Part shown: one piece after another, positions 38,020 to 48,288 of the stretch
How the letters are laid out: the number at the start of each line of letters is the position of its first letter
How positions within the stretch are numbered: position 1 is the stretch's first letter
Source of the DNA: Dehalococcoidia bacterium
Lineage (GTDB): Bacteria > Chloroflexota > Dehalococcoidia > Bin125
DNA length: 64,000 nt
Reading direction: 5' to 3'
Assembly: GCA_022822855.1 (NCBI GenBank)
Contig: JAJDYG010000019.1
Location: forward strand, 36,475-100,474
Position numbers and translations under genes: made by a program
Notes under the pieces: generated by a model
Told to the model about the DNA's origin: nothing
What the model saw: only the letters and a program-made list of their open reading frames with translations
Databases searched by the model: none

Positions 38020-39183
38020 ATGGAACGTGCGTATTTTGACCACGCGGCGACGACTCCTCTGGACCCTCGGGTGTTGGAGGCGATGGCGCCGGCATTGCAG
38101 CATGGATGGGGGAATCCCTCGGGGATTTACCGCGAGGCCCAGTACGCGGCAGGGCTGTTGGACCAGGCTCGGGATGATATTGCGGGGGTGCTGGAATGCT
38201 CTCCTTCAGAGGTCGTGCTGACCTCGGGCGGCACGGAGTCCGACAACCTGGCGATTCGCGGAGCGGCGCTGGCCCGTCAGCACGCGGGTCGGCACTTGAT
38301 CACCCAGGCCACCGAGCATCATGCGGTGCTGCACACGATGGAGCAGCTCGAGCATGAGGGCTTCGAGTTGACAGTGCTGGGCGTCGACGCGGACGGGTTT
38401 GTCGATCCGGACGAGGTTGCCTCGGCGGTTCGCGAGGACACGACGGTCGTCAGCATCATGCTGGCCAACAACGAGATTGGGGCTGTGCAACCGCTGGCCG
38501 AGATCTCGCGGGCGGTGAAGGAGCGCAATCGGCGCGCGATTGTGCATACCGACGCCGTGCAGGCGGCGGGCGCGGTCGATATCCGTCCCGACGTGCTGGG
38601 CGTGGACCTGGTCTCGCTGACGGCTCACAAGATCTACGGACCGAAGGGCGCAGGCGCGCTCTATGTGCGGCGCCGGACGCCGCTGCAGCCGTTGCAGCTC
38701 GGCGGCGGTCAGGAAGAAGAGCGCCGGGCGGGCACGGAATCGGTGGCCCAGGCGGTGGGTCTGGCGACGGCGCTGACCCTGGCGGAAGAGGAGCGTGCGG
38801 CGCGGACGGACCACGCGTCGGAGCTGCGCAATCGGCTCTGGCGAGAGCTGAACGAGCGCGTCCATCCAATCAGGCTGAACGGACCGTCCGACTGGTCGCG
38901 GCGGCTGGCGAACAACCTGAATGTGAGTTTCCCCGGCGTCGAGGGCGAGAGCATCCTCCTGCAGCTTGATCTGGAGGGATTCGCCGCCTCCTCCGGCAGC
39001 GCCTGCAGCACGGGCAGCACCGAGCCGAGTCACGTGCTCAGCGCGATTGGTCTGGATCCCGACACCGCCCACGGCACCCTGCGTCTCAGTCTGGGCCAGT
39101 CGAACACCGAGGAACAGATCGACAGTATTGCCCGGTCGATCGAGCAGATCACGGCACGGCTACGGGCGCTGTCGCCTGTATAG
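38020..39183 (+). CDS. Cysteine desulfurase (IscS/NifS class V aminotransferase)
   Basis: YFDHAATTP ... VLTSGGTESDNLAIRG ... SLTAHKIYGPKGAGALYV (PLP-Lys) ... SSGSACSTGSTEPSHVL (active-site Cys loop). Confidence 0.7.
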   Translation: MERAYFDHAATTPLDPRVLEAMAPALQHGWGNPSGIYREAQYAAGLLDQARDDIAGVLECSPSEVVLTSGGTESDNLAIRGAALARQHAGRHLITQATEHHAVLHTMEQLEHEGFELTVLGVDADGFVDPDEVASAVREDTTVVSIMLANNEIGAVQPLAEISRAVKERNRRAIVHTDAVQAAGAVDIRPDVLGVDLVSLTAHKIYGPKGAGALYVRRRTPLQPLQLGGGQEEERRAGTESVAQAVGLATALTLAEEERAARTDHASELRNRLWRELNERVHPIRLNGPSDWSRRLANNLNVSFPGVEGESILLQLDLEGFAASSGSACSTGSTEPSHVLSAIGLDPDTAHGTLRLSLGQSNTEEQIDSIARSIEQITARLRALSPV

Positions 39184-39208
39184 GGTGAGTCGAGTCAGGA
39201 GCAGCCCA

Positions 39209-39883
39209 ATGGTCACTGCGGAGCCCAGGCCGTCAGCATCACTCACGGGAACGACGCAGCCCAGGCCGCCTGTCCGTGGTGTCTTTCCGGTCCGATTGAC
39301 GCTGCCCTCCGACTGGGAGCTGACCGATGACGTACTCAGCGAAATGGGATCACTCAATGAACTGTGGCGATTCGAAGTCGACAAGTCCGGTTGTCTGCTG
39401 ATCATGTCGCCATCGTTCCCACTCAGCGGGATACGCGCCGGACGGATTCTCTCTCAGCTCGTTGTCTGGTCGGACGAGCACAATTCAGGTATCGTCGCCG
39501 ATTCCAGCTCGATGTTCCGATTGCCGAACGACGAGGTCAGGGTGCCTGACACAGCATGGATAAGCGATGAACGGTTGCAATCGGTATCTGAAGACCTGGA
39601 AGGAGCCTGGCACATCTGCCCGGATTTCGTCGTCGAAGTCCGTTCAGGATCTGACCAACTCGCAGATCTGCAGATCAAGATGGAGATGTGGGTGTCGCAG
39701 GGGGCGCGATTGGCGTGGCTCGTCGATCCGTACGAGGACGCGCTCTGGATCTACCGACCGGAGCAAGAGCCGGAGCGTCTGCAGCGGCCCGACAGAGTGA
39801 CAGCGACCGAGATCGCCGACGATCTGGTGATCGACTTCACCCGCATCTGGCCGGATCGGAAGGCTCGCGATGGTCACGGCTGA
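39209..39883 (+). CDS. Uma2 family (DUF820) PD-(D/E)xK endonuclease-like protein, copy 1
   Basis: LELTD..L.E..SLNE.W..E.D ... CPDFVVEVRS ... MEMWVSQGARLAWLVDP is the DUF820 pattern. Confidence 0.55.
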   Translation: MVTAEPRPSASLTGTTQPRPPVRGVFPVRLTLPSDWELTDDVLSEMGSLNELWRFEVDKSGCLLIMSPSFPLSGIRAGRILSQLVVWSDEHNSGIVADSSSMFRLPNDEVRVPDTAWISDERLQSVSEDLEGAWHICPDFVVEVRSGSDQLADLQIKMEMWVSQGARLAWLVDPYEDALWIYRPEQEPERLQRPDRVTATEIADDLVIDFTRIWPDRKARDGHG

Positions 39884-40550
39884 GCGATCTGAGGCAGCGG
39901 GCCTCGCGGCCACGGTCGCGTCAAGGGGAGCCTGGGAGACTGCGCCGCGGGCGTTTCCACTGCGCCTGCAATTGCCGCGCGACTGGGAGCTGACGGACGA
40001 GCGACTCCTGGAGTTGGGGTCGCTAAATGAAGAGTGGTACCTCGAGGCCGACTGCGAGGGAGGACTGTTCATGGCGCCGCCACCAGGACCGCTGAGCGGC
40101 AAGCGGGAGTTGCGGATCGGCTCGCAGATTCTCAACTGGAGTGACGCCGCCAAGAGAGGGGACGCATTTCCTTCGGCCACATTTCGGCTGGCAAATGGTT
40201 GGCGGCGCGCACCAGACGCGGCCTGGGTCAGCGATGAACGTCTCTCAGGGATCGCCGCCGACGATGAGGGGGTCTGGGCAGTTTGTCCCGACTTCATAGT
40301 GGAAGTGCGTTCAGCGAACGATCAACTGGGTCTCTTGCGAGAGAAGATGGAGATGTGGGTGTCGCAGGGGGCGCGATTGGCGTGGCTCGTCGATCCGTAC
40401 GAGGACGCGCTCTGGATCTACCGACCGGAGCAAGAGCCGGAGCGTCTGCAGCGGCCCGACAGCGTGACAGCGACCGAGATCGCCGACGATCTGGTGATCG
40501 ACTTCACCCGCATCTGGCCGGATCGGAAGGCTCGCGATGGTCACGGCTGA
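39870..40550 (+). CDS. Uma2 family (DUF820) endonuclease-like protein, copy 2
   Basis: Same family. Its 3' ~190 bp are identical to copy 1, and it overlaps copy 1 by the 14-nt ATGGTCACGGCTGA junction. Confidence 0.55.
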   Translation: MVTAERSEAAGLAATVASRGAWETAPRAFPLRLQLPRDWELTDERLLELGSLNEEWYLEADCEGGLFMAPPPGPLSGKRELRIGSQILNWSDAAKRGDAFPSATFRLANGWRRAPDAAWVSDERLSGIAADDEGVWAVCPDFIVEVRSANDQLGLLREKMEMWVSQGARLAWLVDPYEDALWIYRPEQEPERLQRPDSVTATEIADDLVIDFTRIWPDRKARDGHG

Positions 40551-41220
40551 GCGATCTGAGGCAGCGGTCCCCGCGGCGACGGTCGCTGCAAAGGAAGCCT
40601 GGGAAGTTACGCCGGAGGCGTTTCCGTTGCGCCTGCAGTTGCCATCCGACTGGGAGTTGACGGATGAGTGCTTCCTCGAACTGGGCCGCCTCAACGAGGG
40701 CTGGCGGATTGAAGCGGACGGCGAAGGAGGCCTGCTGATCATGGCGCCAACCGGTCCGATGAGCAGTGCCCGGGGAAGCAGCGCCCTGGCTCAAATCTGG
40801 GTCTGGAGCGACGCACACGAGTCGGGAATGGTCTTCGATTCGAGCGCCACCTTCCTGCTGGCCAACGGTGATCGCCGGATGCCCGATGCAGCCTGGATTA
40901 GCGACGAACGGCTGGCGGAGATTGCCGACGACGATGACATCATCTGGCGAATCTGCCCCGATTTCGTCGTCGAGGTGCGATCACAGTCCGACCGGCTGGC
41001 GCCTCAACAGGTGAAGATGGAGTTGTGGATCTCGCAGGGCGCCCGGCTTGCATGGCTTGTCGATCCGTTGGAGGAAACGGTCTGGATTTACCGACCGGGG
41101 CAAGAGCCGGAGCAGGTCGAGCGGCCCGAGAGCGTGACGGCGACGGAGATTGCGGATGATCTGGTGATCGACTTCACTCGGATCTGGCCGCAGCGGGATC
41201 AAGGGTCAGAGACCAGCTGA
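40537..41220 (+). CDS. Uma2 family (DUF820) endonuclease-like protein, copy 3
   Basis: Same family but more diverged. The junction with copy 2 is identical to the copy 1/copy 2 junction. Confidence 0.55.
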   Translation: MVTAERSEAAVPAATVAAKEAWEVTPEAFPLRLQLPSDWELTDECFLELGRLNEGWRIEADGEGGLLIMAPTGPMSSARGSSALAQIWVWSDAHESGMVFDSSATFLLANGDRRMPDAAWISDERLAEIADDDDIIWRICPDFVVEVRSQSDRLAPQQVKMELWISQGARLAWLVDPLEETVWIYRPGQEPEQVERPESVTATEIADDLVIDFTRIWPQRDQGSETS

Positions 41221-43650: not shown

Positions 43651-45279
43651 TCACCCCTCCAACTTCGGCTGTACGCCTTCCCGACGGCGGCGGCGCGGGG
43701 CCTTGCGGAAGGTCTGGGGGGCGGCGAAGCGGGGGTAGTCGGGCTGGGCGCCGTCGAGGAGCTGCTCGATGGTCAGGATCTGGACCTTCGGATAGCGGTT
43801 GCCGGGCAGACTCTCCGGCTCGTAGAAGCCCGCGCCGATCGCTTCCTGGCGCATGGGCTCGGTCGGCTCTTCGAGCGTGATGAAGATGCCGACGGCGGCT
43901 TCCTCGCGATCCATGTCGCCTTTCAGCGTGGCGATCATCCCGCGGTTCACGTGGCCGCTCTTGACCTGGACGATGATCCGCCTGGCCTTGCCCGAGTTGT
44001 CGTCGAAGAAGTTGATGTAGCCGTCGATGCCGGAGTCGGCGCCCTTCTTGCCCGTCGCGGGGCGGGCGTCGACGAGGCCGAGGGCCCAGTACTCGAACTG
44101 GTAGCGGCCGTCGTGCTCCGACTCCGTCGCCAGCGCCCGAGCGCTGGCGACGTCCTGGGGCAGACCGATCACTGAGTACTCGGACAACTCTGAGCCGAAC
44201 GTGTCGTGGAGGCGGTGTTTCATCAGCGACACGGCAAGATGCGTGATGTCTATGCCGATCCAGCGCCTCTTCAGGCGCTCGGCGACAGCGACCGCGGTAC
44301 CGCATCCGCAGAACGGATCGAGAATGACATCGCCTTCGTTGCTGCAGGCACTAATGATGCGCTCAAGTAGCGCTTCAGGCTTCTGGGTCGGATATCCGAG
44401 ACGCTCTTGGTGCCAGGAGCGTAAAGCTTCAATGTCGGTCCAATTGTCCTGAACGGCCAGACCTCGCGCCTCGTCCAGATACCGCTTGATACGAGGTATG
44501 CCGTTCCGCGTGTAGAAGATTCTTCCCTCGGCGTCCAGGCGAGCCATCGTTGACTCGGGAACGCGCCACAATCTGGTTACGCCCTTCCATTCATATGTAT
44601 AGCCACCTCCTTGCAGTCCACCAGCCCCCAGGTCTCCGGACATGAAGCGCCGGCCATCATCATCCGTGTATCGATAGTACTGTTCAACGTATTGAGGATC
44701 GTAGTCTTGGTACTCTTGATTCCAGAGGTAATCGCTTGAGTTCGAAAAGAACATCAGAACATCGTGGACCGAACCGTATCTCCTTGCATCGCTGTGAGCG
44801 CTTGTCCTCTTCCAGATGATCTCGTTGCGGTAGTTGTCATGTCCGAACACCGCGTCCAACAGCAGCTTGATGTAGTGGCTGGCCGTCGGGTCGCAGTGGA
44901 GGTAGATGCTCCCCGTGGGCTTGAGCACTCGGCGGAGTTCGGCCAGCCGCTGGGCCATCATCGTCAGGTAGGCCATCATGTCGTTCTGGCCCAGGAAGGC
45001 TCGCATCGCCTGGAGCAGGCTTGCGAGCCGCTCCGGACCCTGCGTCACCACCTCGCGGTAGGCGGCCTCCGAGCCAAGGTCCCAGTGCCAGGTGTCGTCG
45101 AAGGCCGTGATCTGCGCGGCCGAGTCCTCGCCCGTCTTCTCCTCGAAGAGGACGTTGTAGGTGGCGTTGGAATTGAAGGGCGGGTCGAGGTAGATCAGGT
45201 CGACGGACTCGTCGGGGATGTGTTCGCGGAGGACGCTGAGGTTGTCGCCGAAGTAGAGCTGGTTGGTCCAGGTGGTCAT
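43651..45279 (-). CDS. N4/N6 DNA methyltransferase (beta class) fused to C-terminal Mrr-like restriction endonuclease domain
   Basis: DPPF motif (DLIYLDPPFNSNATY), SAM motif TQKPEALLERIISACSNEGDVILDPFCGCGTAV, and a C-terminal GADSGIDGYI ... RIIVQVKSG (D..QxK nuclease-like core). Confidence 0.65.
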   Translation of the reverse strand: MTTWTNQLYFGDNLSVLREHIPDESVDLIYLDPPFNSNATYNVLFEEKTGEDSAAQITAFDDTWHWDLGSEAAYREVVTQGPERLASLLQAMRAFLGQNDMMAYLTMMAQRLAELRRVLKPTGSIYLHCDPTASHYIKLLLDAVFGHDNYRNEIIWKRTSAHSDARRYGSVHDVLMFFSNSSDYLWNQEYQDYDPQYVEQYYRYTDDDGRRFMSGDLGAGGLQGGGYTYEWKGVTRLWRVPESTMARLDAEGRIFYTRNGIPRIKRYLDEARGLAVQDNWTDIEALRSWHQERLGYPTQKPEALLERIISACSNEGDVILDPFCGCGTAVAVAERLKRRWIGIDITHLAVSLMKHRLHDTFGSELSEYSVIGLPQDVASARALATESEHDGRYQFEYWALGLVDARPATGKKGADSGIDGYINFFDDNSGKARRIIVQVKSGHVNRGMIATLKGDMDREEAAVGIFITLEEPTEPMRQEAIGAGFYEPESLPGNRYPKVQILTIEQLLDGAQPDYPRFAAPQTFRKAPRRRRREGVQPKLEG

Positions 45280-45432
45280 GTCCCCACTCTACCTCCTACA
45301 ACAGACTTGTCCCACGGAGGGAAAGGAGCGCAGAGGTGCCCTCTCCCCTCCGTGATTGTCGCGCATGCAGGAGTCCATTCGAGTAGCGCATGTCGAAGGG
45401 GAGAACAACGTACTTGACTCGCATTTTACCAC

Positions 45433-46386
45433 TCACAGCGACTCACGTAAGGCGTACCAGTTATATCTCCCCGCGTCCAGGGGCTGAGCAGTGACCTGCA
45501 CCATATCGTTCAGCAAGAGTCCAACAAAGATCGACCAGGGCTCACTAGATTCGAAATCTACTATGTGTCCTTGCGGCTCCGGTGTGAGTTCTATTCTAAC
45601 CAAGGAATGTTCCGGCATCTTGCTGTCTTTGGTTTCGTTAGCACTAACCAGTATGTTCTTCTTGCCTGCGCTATGATTGAGCGCGACCGCCAGATCTATA
45701 CGATCGCGGTGCCCCAGCCCATGCTGACGTACTAAGTGTTCATAGCTCAGCCGCAGGCTGAGAAAATCCGTAGCGTCGAAGGCTATCACAAAGAAAATCG
45801 ATTCCCAGTAGCGGCCGGCGCCAAGCGCTTCGCCAAAGGGCTTTGCGGTGGCGATGGGATGATAGGGATGCGGATCACGGTACGCAACGCGCGACAGTGA
45901 CTTGTAGCTCTCGCACTTGTCAAAGCAGTCTCGAAGCTGGCTCGCATGCAGCCTTGTCTTCACTTCTCCACATGCGTAGGTAGCCTCAACCGGGAATACT
46001 TCAGCTCCATCAGGCCCAGCCGCTGCCCGAATCCTTGGGCAGTTGAAGCGATCATAGAGAATGATGTCCATTTGCTTGGAAGTGCTTCCATAGGAATCTA
46101 CTACGAAGCCATGTGAGATACCGACCTTCTCAGGAGGCACGCTGCTGAGAGCTTCACGGATTCGGGATTCGATACTCTGACCAATCTCTCCCGGACTCGG
46201 AAGCTTGCGATCACCCTCAATGTCAGCGATCAAGCGCGTTTGCATGTCGTAAAGGGACTCTGCGAGTTGGCCACGCGTTGGTGCGGGTGCATTCCCGCCA
46301 TCGTTGGGAGCCCGCGTCGGTCGGGGATTTACGATTGGTAGGCTGCGTTCTTTCTGTCGCCTGCGATTCTCTTTCGACATTGCCAT
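45433..46386 (-). CDS. Uncharacterised PD-(D/E)xK nuclease-like protein (candidate restriction/defence endonuclease)
   Basis: GFVVDSYGSTSKQMDIILYD ... AEVFPVEATYACGEVKT gives a D-x(n)-E-x-K arrangement. It sits directly upstream of and co-oriented with the MTase gene, in an AT-richer segment. Confidence 0.35.
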   Translation of the reverse strand: MAMSKENRRRQKERSLPIVNPRPTRAPNDGGNAPAPTRGQLAESLYDMQTRLIADIEGDRKLPSPGEIGQSIESRIREALSSVPPEKVGISHGFVVDSYGSTSKQMDIILYDRFNCPRIRAAAGPDGAEVFPVEATYACGEVKTRLHASQLRDCFDKCESYKSLSRVAYRDPHPYHPIATAKPFGEALGAGRYWESIFFVIAFDATDFLSLRLSYEHLVRQHGLGHRDRIDLAVALNHSAGKKNILVSANETKDSKMPEHSLVRIELTPEPQGHIVDFESSEPWSIFVGLLLNDMVQVTAQPLDAGRYNWYALRESL

Positions 46387-46882
46387 CCTACTCACGATTC
46401 TCAGGACACCTTGACCACGCCCCATTGTCGTCAAGCAGGTTCCGCCAATCAAGGAATTGGCTGCAATCCACGCAGTGGCGCACCGGCCTAGGCGATGACA
46501 GGTGCGATATCCCCAATGGTGGTTTTGCGCCGCGCGATGTTGAAATCGTAGCCGCGCTGCAGGTTGAGCCTAAACGCCGGCGTCGTGTCCAGCGGCTGAA
46601 GTGCGGTCCCGATAGTGCGCTGTAAACTGAGTGGACAGCGATCAGGAAGAGATGCGCGATGCCGGACGAAGAGAGGGGCTTGACCGTCGGGCAGGCGGTG
46701 CGCGGCGACGGGCCGCCGATGGACCCGGAAGAGGCCCGCAAGCTCCGCGAGCGCGTCTCCGGGAGCTGGGAGAAGTACTTCCGCGAGTACCCGGCACTCG
46801 AGGAAGCCTACGGGCAGCACCGACGCCCCAGCTTCGAAAGCGGCTAGCCAATCACGGTATTCATCGACGGAGTGTTCAGGCC

Positions 46883-47125
46883 GTGGAGCGGATTTACTCC
46901 AAGGACACCGACACGCTGATGTTCGTCTTTTCCGACGAGCGCATCGTTGACCATGTCGATCTCGACTACCAGACGCTGCTCGAGCTGGACTGCGACGGCA
47001 ACCCGGTCGCATTGACCATCGAGCACGCCCGCGAACGCGAGGTCTTGCGGCCTCCTGATGCCGGCGGGCTGCCTAATGCTACGACCGCACCGACCTCTGT
47101 ACGTGCTCGCGGAGCGCCTGGTTGA
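46883..47125 (+). CDS. DUF2283-like small protein
   Basis: RIYSKDTDTLMFVFSDERIVDHVDLDYQTLLELDCDGNPVALTIEHARER resembles the DUF2283 pattern (Y D.EAD.L.I.L ... D.D.dG.lvGIEI). Putative GTG start; the long upstream in-frame extension looks non-coding. Confidence 0.3.
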   Translation: MERIYSKDTDTLMFVFSDERIVDHVDLDYQTLLELDCDGNPVALTIEHAREREVLRPPDAGGLPNATTAPTSVRARGAPG

Positions 47126-47363
47126 TCTTGGTCTGATAGCCCCGACCCTCCTGCGCCTGCGCCTTGAACCAGGCGATCACGTCGGCATCGATTCTGAGCG
47201 TGATCTGTTGCTTGACCGGCCGGTAGAACTTGCCTCGCACGGCGCCCGTCCAGTCAGTCGTTTCCGGAATGTCACTGAAGTCGATCTGGTCATCCGGGAG
47301 AGCTTCCAAGGCCCTAATCTGAGCCTGCGACTCGGGCGACAGATCACTCATTTCCTTCTTCAT
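47079..47363 (-). CDS. brnA: BrnA antitoxin (CopG/RHH-like)
   Basis: SDIPETTDW ... ITLRIDADVIAWFKAQAQEGRGYQTKINQALREHV is the BrnA family pattern. Overlaps the brnT 3' end. Confidence 0.55.
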   Translation of the reverse strand: MKKEMSDLSPESQAQIRALEALPDDQIDFSDIPETTDWTGAVRGKFYRPVKQQITLRIDADVIAWFKAQAQEGRGYQTKINQALREHVQRSVRS

Positions 47364-47634
47364 ACTCCCGCCTCTCTGACCTCGACGCCTTTCGTGCCGA
47401 GATGACTCGCGCGCTCAGTTCTGGCCCCATGGGCGTTTCCTCAAACCAGGTGTGAATCACCACAATGACCTGGGACGCAACCATGCCGATTGTCCGCCAG
47501 CGTTGCTCCTGCCGATAATGATCCTCGACCGTGATCGACATCGGATCGTCGAAGACTGCGACCGCAGTTGGAAAATCGATGTCGTGCTTGCGAAGGTTGG
47601 CAACGTTCTTCGCGGGATCCCAGGTCCATCTCAA
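47344..47634 (-). CDS. brnT: BrnT toxin (DUF497 ribonuclease)
   Basis: WTWDPAKNVANLRKHDIDFPTAVAVFDDP ... RVISARKASRSERREYEEG matches the BrnT/DUF497 consensus. Start appears to be TTG. Confidence 0.6.
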   Translation of the reverse strand: MRWTWDPAKNVANLRKHDIDFPTAVAVFDDPMSITVEDHYRQEQRWRTIGMVASQVIVVIHTWFEETPMGPELSARVISARKASRSERREYEEGNE

Positions 47635-47982: not shown

Positions 47983-48108
47983 GCCATTGCCTCCGACCCT
48001 CGCGCCCGCTGTAGTGCATTCTTATCAGTTGGATAACACCAACACGGGGGTCATGCGCTCCCCTTTGCCTACCGAGGATCCACTCGGCCCTGCGTTGAGG
48101 CAGCGGCG

Positions 48109-48250
48109 CCGAGCGGGTCCCCGAACAAGTCGGGGACTGGGAGGCGAGCCGGTCTCCGAACGAGTCGGGGAACGGGAGCCGAGCGGGTCCCCGAACGGGT
48201 CAGGGAACAGGTGCCGAGCGGGTCCCCGAACGGGTCGGGGAGTGGGAGCC
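48109..48250. repeat. Four tandem copies of a ~35-bp unit, each a small hairpin (gtccccgaacRRgtcgggga)
   Basis: gagcgggtccccgaacgggtcggggaacgggagcc with minor variants, repeated head-to-tail four times. Confidence 0.6.
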
Positions 48251-48288
48251 GGGCGGACGCCCGCGTGAAGCGGGGAGCGGCCCCCTCC

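What the first reader, a model, noticed from the sequence alone, without database searches (positions are those of the whole stretch)
45433..46386. Uncharacterised PD-(D/E)xK protein directly upstream of the MTase-Mrr gene: candidate novel restriction/defence nuclease
The ~317-aa product has a hhhD ... E-x-K core (MDIILYD ... VEATYACGEVK) typical of restriction-endonuclease-fold nucleases, but I recognise no named family. It is co-oriented with the MTase gene and separated from it by only ~150 bp. That gap holds a 9-bp-stem hairpin (cacggaggg ... ccctccgtg at ~45312-45354). A nuclease and MTase arranged this way could be a Type II-like R-M pair, or a nuclease kept in check by the MTase-Mrr fusion.
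Basis: inference. Interest (0 to 1): 0.7.

Follow-up and report, generated by a model that had tools for sequence, protein, structure and literature searches.

The report
Solitary NucC-like nuclease beside a methyltransferase
The gene encodes an intact DNA-cutting enzyme with the fold of the anti-phage nuclease NucC, but it lacks NucC's signal-binding tyrosine and signalling partners, moves between sponge-symbiont genomes as a single gene, and is not a conserved partner of the methyltransferase next to it.

Summary
ORF 45433-46386 (-) is intact, carries the D...E-x-K motif, and lies 153 bp upstream of the MTase-Mrr gene. The gap holds a 9-bp-stem hairpin at 45313-45354.

NucC's cA3-stacking Tyr81 is Asn here. 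None of 124 related cluster representatives has a Tyr at that position. No CD-NTase was found in the window or in 34 related loci.

The restriction-modification (R-M) pair reading fails on three points:
- The 62% homolog has no MTase neighbour.
- Only about 5 of about 25 contexts have an adjacent MTase, and these are of three unrelated classes.
- MTase-Mrr orthologs at 91% and 87% identity stand alone.

The nuclease gene has lower GC than its flanks in 27 of 29 loci, so it behaves as a mobile single gene.

Best reading: a solitary, horizontally mobile NucC-family defence nuclease, comparable to the single-gene DUF6602 system Damona. Its activation trigger is unknown. This is a new variant of a known kind, of moderate interest.

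The parts
45433..46386 (-). Gene for the 317-aa NucC-family (DUF6602) PD-(D/E)xK nuclease. The stop codon is 45433-45435. Alternative starts are the ATG at 46380 (public gene call, 315 aa) and the TTG at 46452.
45895..46197 (-). Residues 64-164, the Pfam DUF6602 match. This is the core nuclease half and holds the catalytic residues.
   Evidence: The alignment to solved NucC sequences covers residues 40-196.
46066..46068 (-). Codon for D107 (in M-D-I-I-L-Y-D), which aligns with catalytic Asp73 of E. coli NucC.
   Evidence: Invariant in 33 homologs and in 128 of 129 wider relatives. The role of NucC Asp73 is taken from bioRxiv 10.1101/694703.
45958..45987 (-). Codons E134 to K143 (V-E-A-T-Y-A-C-G-E-V-K). 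E134 aligns with NucC E97, E141 with E104 and K143 with K106.
   Evidence: Invariant. The NucC motif IDx30EAK is described.
46042..46044 (-). Codon for N115, the position of NucC Tyr81, which stacks on the adenines of cA3. It is Asn here and is non-aromatic throughout the clade.
   Evidence: Alignments A4: Tyr occurs at this column only in the three true NucC reference sequences.
46270..46386 (-). Residues 1-39, a low-confidence, probably disordered N-terminal extension. Only the 62% homolog P0002 shares it; the ~270-aa relatives lack it.
   Evidence: pLDDT about 50. Alignment A1. NCBI-aa versions of P0002-cluster members.
45313..45354 (-). Stem-loop in the 153-bp gap between the nuclease and the MTase. 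The outer stem is 9 bp, with inner pairing and no T-tract.
   Evidence: Not conserved upstream of MTase orthologs. No Rfam match.
43651..45279 (-). Neighbouring gene, listed as context and not as a demonstrated partner: a 542-aa N6_N4 DNA methyltransferase with a C-terminal Mrr_cat/NA-iREase1 domain.
   Evidence: Pfam. More than 8000 homologs with the same architecture. Orthologs stand alone.

Best explanation
The gene encodes a solitary, horizontally mobile member of the NucC/DUF6602 family of restriction-endonuclease-fold DNases.

Shown:
- The fold matches NucC over the whole NucC chain, including the non-core embellishments that build NucC's trimer.
- The Mg2+-binding and catalytic residues are intact: D107, E134, E141-x-K143.
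- The cA3-stacking Tyr81 and the CD-NTase/Cas10 gene context that define true NucC are absent.
- The neighbours of homologs vary: R-M genes of several types, ApeA, toxin-antitoxin modules, integrases and relaxases, or plain housekeeping genes.
- The gene almost always has lower GC than its flanks.

Inferred:
- It is a single-gene defence effector of the kind reported as 'Damona', a DUF6602-only anti-phage gene.
- It probably assembles like NucC, as an inactive trimer that pairs into a hexamer able to cut double-stranded DNA.
- It is switched on by a cue other than canonical cA3. That cue is unknown.
- Its position next to the MTase-Mrr gene reflects clustering in a small defence/TA islet (MTase-Mrr, nuclease, DUF2283, BrnA/BrnT), not a cognate restriction-modification partnership.
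For: Family and fold:
- Pfam DUF6602, 74 bits against a cutoff of 27.
- PADLOC PD_DExK and NucC models.
- Sequence matches to solved NucC: 1e-11 for the single sequence and 2e-23 for the profile.
- AF2 model with pLDDT 82.8 and pTM 0.80.
- Foldseek to NucC, E 9e-17, TM 0.80-0.82 normalised to NucC length.

Catalysis: D107, E134, E141 and K143 are invariant.

Not a canonical NucC:
- R53 becomes K, Y81 becomes N, and T226 is variable.
- None of 124 related 50%-cluster representatives has Tyr at position 81.
- No CD-NTase in the window or in 34 loci.
- No CD-NTase or Cas10 in any called-gene table or among the top neighbour families.

Solitary and mobile:
- Gene GC is below flank GC in 27 of 29 loci, by 9.8 points on average.
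- In the window, GC3 is 0.58 against 0.8-0.9 for host genes.
- Neighbours include an integrase and a transposase, TrwB and a relaxase, ApeA, and a type I R-M operon with the gene embedded in it.

Not an MTase partner. In L033 an intact nuclease sits upstream of a decayed 45-aa MTase remnant.

Precedent: Damona, a DUF6602 anti-phage cassette that matches the same Cas PD_DExK and CBASS endonuclease profiles (bioRxiv 10.1101/2024.07.02.601686).
Against: - No experiment bears on this clade, so nuclease activity, oligomeric state and anti-phage effect are all inferred.
- Similarity to Damona itself could not be tested, because its sequence is not in the held text.
- No relatives were found in phage or viral-contig collections. 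Several homologs sit in plain housekeeping contexts, so a non-defence role is not excluded.
- About one in five contexts does have an adjacent DNA MTase, which leaves room for a functional link to R-M.
- An aromatic residue (F184) aligns with the NucC latch residue Tyr141 in the large alignment, so some form of ligand gating may persist.
- Only 64 kb of the source genome was visible, so a distant cyclase cannot be excluded.
Confidence: 0.6

Rival explanations
1. Type II-like restriction-modification pair. The DUF6602 protein is the sequence-specific REase, and the adjacent N6_N4 MTase-Mrr protects the host genome.
For: - The two genes are co-oriented with a 153-bp gap.
- A minority of homologs sit directly beside DNA MTases: L009, L011/15/21/22 and L028/31.
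Against: - Apart from the window's own copy, no homolog locus has an MTase-Mrr neighbour.
- The 62% homolog has no MTase within 8 kb.
- Roughly four fifths of contexts lack any MTase within 3.5 kb.
- The adjacent MTases belong to three unrelated classes, and each carries or travels with its own nuclease: Mrr, the type IIG N-terminal PD-ExK, or HsdR.
- MTase-Mrr orthologs at 91% and 87% identity are solitary.
- GC3 is 0.58 against 0.82, which indicates separate histories.
- In L033 the nuclease is intact next to a decayed MTase fragment.
- NucC, the only characterised relative, is largely sequence-nonspecific and insensitive to methylation.
Confidence: 0.07
2. Orphan cyclic-oligonucleotide-activated effector. 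The protein works like NucC but is switched on in trans by cA3 or another cyclic nucleotide, made by a CD-NTase or Cas10 encoded elsewhere in the genome.
For: - The fold matches NucC over the whole NucC chain, including the embellishments that form the trimer and the allosteric pocket.
- A basic residue (K87) is kept at the position of the phosphate-binding Arg53.
- An aromatic residue (F184) aligns with latch Tyr141 in the wide alignment.
- The top PADLOC hit is a CRISPR-associated PD_DExK profile.
Against: - Tyr81, which is required for cA3-activated cleavage in NucC, is Asn, Ser or Gly in the clade and is never Tyr in 124 relatives.
- T226 and H136 are not conserved.
- No CD-NTase or Cas10 lies near any of about 25 contexts or in the 64-kb window.
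- True NucC genes sit inside CBASS operons.
Confidence: 0.12
3. R-M-coupled second-line nuclease. The solitary NucC-like nuclease is repeatedly recruited next to R-M modules and fires when the R-M system is inhibited or overwhelmed. The analogy is PrrC, embedded in the EcoprrI type I R-M locus.
For: - The gene is embedded between hsdS and hsdR in a type I operon in two related loci.
- It lies 36 bp downstream of type IIG-like Eco57I-family MTases in Poribacteria.
- In the window it lies next to the MTase-Mrr gene.
- MTases make up about 5% of neighbour ORFs.
Against: - Most contexts have no R-M genes.
- The MTase-adjacent cases collapse to about 5 independent contexts.
- Defence-island clustering alone explains the adjacency.
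- There is no evidence of physical or regulatory coupling.
Confidence: 0.1
4. Non-defence role, for example a DNA repair or recombination nuclease, or a selfish or toxin-like gene maintained without immune function.
For: - Several homologs lie between housekeeping genes.
- There are no phage or viral-contig relatives.
- Distribution is narrow, mostly sponge-symbiont MAGs.
Against: - Even in housekeeping contexts the gene is a low-GC single-gene insertion, -16 to -26 points.
- There is no conserved repair partner.
- All characterised relatives are immune effectors.
Confidence: 0.06

Closest known systems
NucC (CD-NTase-associated / type III CRISPR-associated cA3-activated endonuclease; PDB 6P7P, 6Q1H, 6UXF, 7ZGV)
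   Same: - The catalytic motif is the same: D73, E97, E104 and K106 correspond to D107, E134, E141 and K143.
- An N-terminal helix is present at the position of NucC's alpha0 helix.
- Both fall in the same Pfam domain, DUF6602.
   Different: - Only about 20% identity.
- The cA3-stacking Tyr81 is replaced by Asn, Thr226 is not conserved in the clade, and His136 of the latch is not conserved.
- It is about 30 residues longer in the C-terminal half, plus a 39-aa N-terminal extension.
- It is never found in a CBASS or type III CRISPR operon in the loci examined.
Damona (single-gene DUF6602 anti-phage cassette of the Vibrio cholerae sedentary chromosomal integron; bioRxiv 10.1101/2024.07.02.601686)
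   Same: - It is a single gene whose only recognisable domain is DUF6602.
- It is matched by the same two defence profiles, Cas PD_DExK and the CBASS small endonuclease/NucC.
- It is found in mobile contexts.
   Different: - Damona is reported from Vibrio integrons and Acinetobacter prophages. This clade is from sponge-symbiont Chloroflexota, Poribacteria and others, with no phage hits.
CCGG-family type II restriction endonucleases (NgoMIV, Kpn2I, Bse634I, Cfr10I, SgrAI, PfoI, PspGI)
   Different: - They lack the NucC-type embellishments.
- This protein has no conserved cognate MTase.
- There is no evidence of a DNA-recognition module.
PrrC embedded in the EcoprrI type I R-M locus (from general knowledge)
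   Same: In L028 and L031 the homolog is inserted between hsdS and hsdR, the same kind of placement as an R-M-embedded defence effector.
   Different: - PrrC is an anticodon nuclease with a different fold.
- The embedding is seen in only one lineage of this family, and not in the window.

Membership tests
Pfam DUF6602 (PF20247) | Score above the Pfam gathering threshold | tested here: met
   74.3 bits against a cutoff of 27; residues 64-164 cover profile positions 9-104 of 104. All 109 homologs carry PF20247.
NucC (cA3-activated endonuclease) | Restriction-endonuclease core plus the NucC-specific embellishments, i.e. a match over the whole NucC chain | tested here: met
   [not shown]
NucC (cA3-activated endonuclease) | Catalytic motif IDx30EAK (Asp73, Glu104, Lys106) | tested here: met
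   M-D107 ... E141-V-K143 is invariant in the clade and in 126-128 of 129 wider relatives.
NucC (cA3-activated endonuclease) | cA3-binding residues Arg53, Tyr81 and Thr226, each required for activation | tested here: not met
   Arg53 becomes Lys87, a conservative change. Tyr81 becomes Asn115, and no Tyr occurs at this column in 124 relatives. Thr226 is Thr in the window but variable across the clade.
NucC (cA3-activated endonuclease) | Gate-loop latch His136/Tyr141 | tested here: inconclusive
   His136 is not conserved. The near-invariant F184 aligns with Tyr141 in the 129-sequence alignment but not in the 17-sequence one. The loop has low pLDDT of 63-66.
NucC (cA3-activated endonuclease) | Encoded in an operon with a CD-NTase (CBASS) or Cas10 (type III CRISPR) | tested here: not met
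   None in the 64-kb window or near about 25 homolog contexts. The CD-NTase HMM search was negative. True nucC genes are in CBASS operons. Only local DNA was visible, not whole genomes.
NucC (cA3-activated endonuclease) | Homotrimer that dimerises into a hexamer on ligand binding | not testable with these tools
   Only monomer prediction is available, and the coordinates cannot be inspected.
Type II restriction-modification REase | A cognate MTase gene that is consistently adjacent in homologs | tested here: not met
   The closest homolog lacks one. Only about 5 of about 25 contexts have an adjacent MTase, of three unrelated classes. MTase-Mrr orthologs are solitary.
Type II restriction-modification REase | Sequence-specific cleavage that is blocked by cognate methylation | not testable with these tools
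   Requires biochemistry. REBASE is not available here.
Damona (single-gene DUF6602 defence system) | A single gene whose only domain is DUF6602 and which also matches the Cas PD_DExK and CBASS endonuclease profiles | tested here: met
   for the window protein.
Damona (single-gene DUF6602 defence system) | Sequence homology to the V. cholerae Damona protein, and anti-phage activity | not tested
   The Damona sequence is not retrievable from the held text or supplements. Anti-phage activity needs an experiment.

The most novel reading that the evidence does not exclude
The protein represents a large, essentially unstudied branch of the NucC fold that has lost cA3 sensing. The profile search gave about 6,700 50%-identity clusters at E<=1e-3. 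All ~124 of the best 150 representatives that were checked have a non-Tyr residue at the position of NucC Tyr81. On this reading the branch is controlled by a different trigger. It is repeatedly recruited into R-M loci (embedded in a type I operon, downstream of type IIG MTases, and next to the MTase-Mrr here) as an R-M-coupled second-line or guard nuclease.
Probability: 0.12. Interest if true: 0.7.

Novelty: new variant of a known kind. Interest (0 to 1): 0.4.

Why it matters
NucC is the textbook case of a restriction-enzyme fold turned into a second-messenger-gated suicide nuclease. This gene shows the same fold circulating as a stand-alone, horizontally mobile gene. It lacks the messenger-binding tyrosine and has no cyclase nearby.

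If the protein is active, it must be controlled some other way. That bears on how solitary nuclease defence genes such as Damona avoid killing their host.

For annotation, the practical result is that the MTase-Mrr gene and this nuclease should not be recorded as an R-M pair. The MTase-Mrr fusion is a very common, usually solitary gene in these genomes.

Tried and rejected
- NCBIfam has no model for the nuclease.
- The phage collection (tblastn) and IMG/VR viral contigs gave no relatives.
- JGI metagenome contigs gave only one locus, so the co-occurrence sample stayed at about 25 contexts.
- The afdb50 fold library was unavailable.
- The Damona sequence or locus tag was not in the held paper text or supplement, so there was no direct comparison.
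- Searches for 'NucC-like' and 'PF20247' found no study of solitary homologs.
- The promoter/terminator scan found nothing in the gap or upstream of the nuclease.
- No tRNA gene and no convincing flanking direct repeats define the island boundaries.
- Rfam found nothing in the gap.
- The hairpin was considered as an MTase 5' regulatory element. This was rejected because the upstream regions of the 91% and 87% MTase orthologs are unrelated.
- The 952-aa gene upstream in L033 was considered as a further type IIG MTase. This was rejected because it is an FRG/TPR-type protein, not related to the L011 MTase.
- A trimer prediction by concatenating chains was considered.

Full report
**1. Observation**

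The minus strand carries an open frame at 45433..46452 from a TTG start. Public gene calls use the next ATG and give 315 aa (P0001, 100% identical).

The quoted motifs MDIILYD and VEATYACGEVK are present.

The co-oriented downstream gene 43651..45279 is a 542-aa N6_N4 DNA methyltransferase. Its C-terminal domain matches Mrr_cat and NA-iREase1. The gap between the two genes is 153 bp.

The hairpin is real. Its arms are at 45354-45346 and 45321-45313, with further inner pairing. It carries little statistical weight:
- The gap folds at z = -1.97 against shuffles.
- The window holds 30 comparable inverted repeats, against 12 +/- 3.4 in shuffles.
- No T-tract follows it, and the terminator scan did not call it.
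- It matches no Rfam family.
- It is not conserved upstream of MTase orthologs.

**2. What the protein is**

- Pfam DUF6602: 8.5e-21, 74 bits against a cutoff of 27.
- PADLOC CRISPR-associated PD_DExK (5e-28) and NucC effector (9e-20) profiles.
- Solved NucC structures by sequence: Serratia 1e-11 and E. coli 2e-7. With a family profile the match is 2e-23.

An AlphaFold2 model was built from 33 homologs and is confident (pLDDT 82.8, pTM 0.80). It matches NucC over the whole NucC chain:
- Foldseek E 9e-17, TM 0.80-0.82 normalised to NucC length.

**3. Catalytic and regulatory residues**

In 33 homologs D107, E134, E141 and K143 are invariant. Three true NucC sequences were taken from CBASS operons on plasmids. 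Aligned with these, the four residues correspond to NucC D73, E97, E104 and K106. NucC's motif is IDx30EAK, and D73N abolishes its activity.

NucC's cA3 contacts are Arg53, Tyr81 and Thr226/Val227, with a gate-loop latch formed by His136 and Tyr141. Mutating any of these residues abolishes activation. The window protein compares as follows:
- Arg53 is Lys87, a conservative change.
- Tyr81 is Asn115. The clade has Asn, Ser, Gly or Arg at this position.
- Thr226 is Thr in the window but variable across the clade.
- His136 is not conserved.

A 129-sequence alignment included the best 50%-cluster representatives from the exhaustive profile search. In it, Tyr at position 81 occurs only in the three NucC reference sequences. 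The relatives have Arg, Lys or Asn there. D73, E104 and K106 are kept in 126-128 of 129 sequences.

Position 81 lies between the highly conserved D78 (120 of 129) and P83 (invariant in alignment A4), so this mapping is reliable. An aromatic residue (F184 in the window) aligns with latch Tyr141 in that large alignment but not in the smaller one. The latch is therefore left as inconclusive.

**4. Genomic context of relatives**

The tight clade has 109 members at 90% clustering. The second-best hit is 62% identical and the rest are about 40%. Twenty-two species-representative genomes carry the gene. Most are MAGs of Candidatus Poribacteria, Dehalococcoidia/Chloroflexota, Dadabacteria, Longimicrobiales and Proteobacteria. 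From general knowledge, several of these lineages are known sponge symbionts. The closest relatives are Chloroflexota MAG proteins annotated as hypothetical.

All-against-all clustering of neighbour ORFs found no universally conserved partner.

DNA methyltransferases are adjacent in a minority of contexts:
- A 1015-aa N6_Mtase/Eco57I-type protein lies upstream in L009.
- An 83-89% identical 985-990-aa Eco57I-type protein lies 33-36 bp upstream in four Poribacteria loci, which count as one context.
- The gene is inserted between hsdS and hsdR of a type I operon, next to an LD_cluster2 gene, in two related loci.
- MTases lie 2-3 genes away in L017.

Elsewhere the neighbours are:
- ApeA (L005, L006), an AAA_21/AAA_15 ATPase (L018), and TrwB with a relaxase (L024)
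- HepT-like and nucleotidyltransferase genes
- an integrase, a transposase, SocA and an FRG-domain protein
- plain housekeeping genes

The 62% homolog has no MTase within 8 kb.

No CD-NTase or Cas10 appears in any called-gene table. A CD-NTase HMM built from the three CBASS operons found nothing in 34 loci or in the window. Pfam families across the 64-kb window are otherwise housekeeping, apart from Uma2 and BrnT.

**5. The MTase-Mrr side**

The fusion has more than 8000 homologs. The top 120 are 69-99% identical and share the same architecture. Orthologs at 91% and 87% identity lie between a vWA gene and an MR_MLE gene, with no nuclease nearby. Full-length relatives on plasmids are annotated as stand-alone methyltransferases.

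The MTase-Mrr gene is therefore normally solitary, and its adjacency to the nuclease is unique to this genome.

The two genes also differ in composition. The nuclease has GC3 0.58 and the MTase 0.82, against 0.8-0.9 for host genes.

In L033 an intact nuclease gene is followed, 830 bp downstream, by only a 45-aa remnant of an N6_N4 MTase whose DPPF motif has decayed to DRPF. A classical REase should not survive the loss of its MTase.

**6. Mobility**

The nuclease gene has lower GC than its flanks in 27 of 29 loci. The mean difference is -9.8 points and the largest is -26 points. This includes loci where it sits alone among housekeeping genes. In the window the gene is 54% GC against 66% for the rest. 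It behaves as a single-gene unit transferred across phyla.

**7. Interpretation**

Shown:
- A NucC-family fold, matching NucC over its whole length, with an intact active site.
- Loss of the residue that stacks on cA3.
- No cyclase context.
- No conserved MTase partner.
- A mobile single-gene character.

Inferred:
- It is a stand-alone defence nuclease of the Damona kind. Damona is a DUF6602-only anti-phage cassette that matches the same Cas PD_DExK and CBASS endonuclease profiles.
- It probably uses NucC-like trimer-to-hexamer assembly to cut double-stranded DNA.
- Its trigger is something other than canonical cA3.

The window's arrangement is MTase-Mrr, nuclease, a 62-aa ORF, DUF2283, BrnA/BrnT. 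I read it as a small defence/TA islet between a methyltransferase-like gene and nuoB.

Rivals, with my confidence in each:
- True R-M pair: about 0.07.
- Orphan cyclic-nucleotide effector activated in trans: about 0.12.
- R-M-coupled guard nuclease: about 0.10.
- Non-defence role: about 0.06.

**8. Novelty and score**

The family is named (DUF6602), and its founding member NucC is well characterised. One solitary DUF6602 defence gene, Damona, has been reported. The solitary branch is large: 6706 50%-identity clusters at E<=1e-3 and 2880 at E<=1e-10. Literature searches found no study of how it is controlled.

I rate this a new variant of a known kind, with interest 0.4. It is a clear correction of the R-M reading, and it raises a modestly interesting question: how is a NucC fold regulated without cA3?

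Noticed in passing
window 43651-45279 (-); L039, L040: The N6_N4 MTase + Mrr_cat/NA-iREase1 fusion belongs to a very large and highly conserved family. It has more than 8000 homologs, and the top 120 are 69-99% identical with the same architecture. Orthologs at 91% and 87% identity sit in a different, housekeeping context (vWA upstream, MR_MLE downstream). It looks like a common solitary gene of these Chloroflexota, and its role (orphan MTase or self-contained R-M fusion) is unclear.
   Followed up: partly
window ~39200-41220 (+): Three tandem Uma2-family (DUF820, 'putative restriction endonuclease') paralogs lie here. The ORFs 38966-39883 and 39870-40550 end in an identical ~60-aa C-terminus (…ARLAWLVDPYEDALWIYRPEQEPERLQRPD…IWPDRKARDGHG), which suggests a recent tandem duplication.
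   Followed up: no
window 48105-48280: A tandem array of about five 35-bp units, each holding a short palindrome (GTCCCCGAAC…GTCGGGGA). It lies between the small low-GC islet and nuoB. It may be a REP-like element or an island boundary.
   Followed up: no
window 46631-47634: The low-GC3 (about 0.62) segment next to the nuclease also carries a DUF2283-like ORF and a BrnA/BrnT toxin-antitoxin pair (47079-47363 and 47344-47634, minus strand). Together with the nuclease these form a small accessory islet.
   Followed up: partly
L028 5268-12626; L031 4259-11686: A type I R-M operon arranged hsdM-hsdS-[DUF6602 nuclease]-[LD_cluster2 protein]-hsdR. Two extra genes are embedded between the specificity and restriction subunits, and the arrangement is conserved in two related metagenomic contigs.
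   Followed up: partly
L033 8639-8770: A 45-aa remnant of an N6_N4 MTase N-terminus, with DPPF decayed to DRPF, lies 830 bp downstream of an intact nuclease homolog on the same strand. This suggests a former nuclease-MTase arrangement in which only the nuclease survived.
   Followed up: partly
L027 6922-7875; L033 4107-6965: FRG-domain (PF08867) proteins lie directly upstream of, and co-oriented with, the nuclease homolog in two contigs from one sample. One is fused to TPR repeats. They may be a lineage-specific partner.
   Followed up: no
L005 2320-3858; L006 10930-12510: ApeA-type HEPN defence genes (ApeA_NTD1 + HEPN_Apea) lie immediately downstream of the nuclease homolog in a Spirochaetia MAG and a Dadabacteria MAG.
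   Followed up: no
L005-L034 (all homolog loci): The clade is found almost only in MAGs of Poribacteria, Dehalococcoidia/Chloroflexota, Dadabacteria, Longimicrobiales and Porisulfidus, lineages that from general knowledge include sponge symbionts. It is nearly absent from JGI metagenome contigs and absent from the phage and viral collections. The gene is 5-26 GC points below its flanks in 27 of 29 loci.
   Followed up: partly
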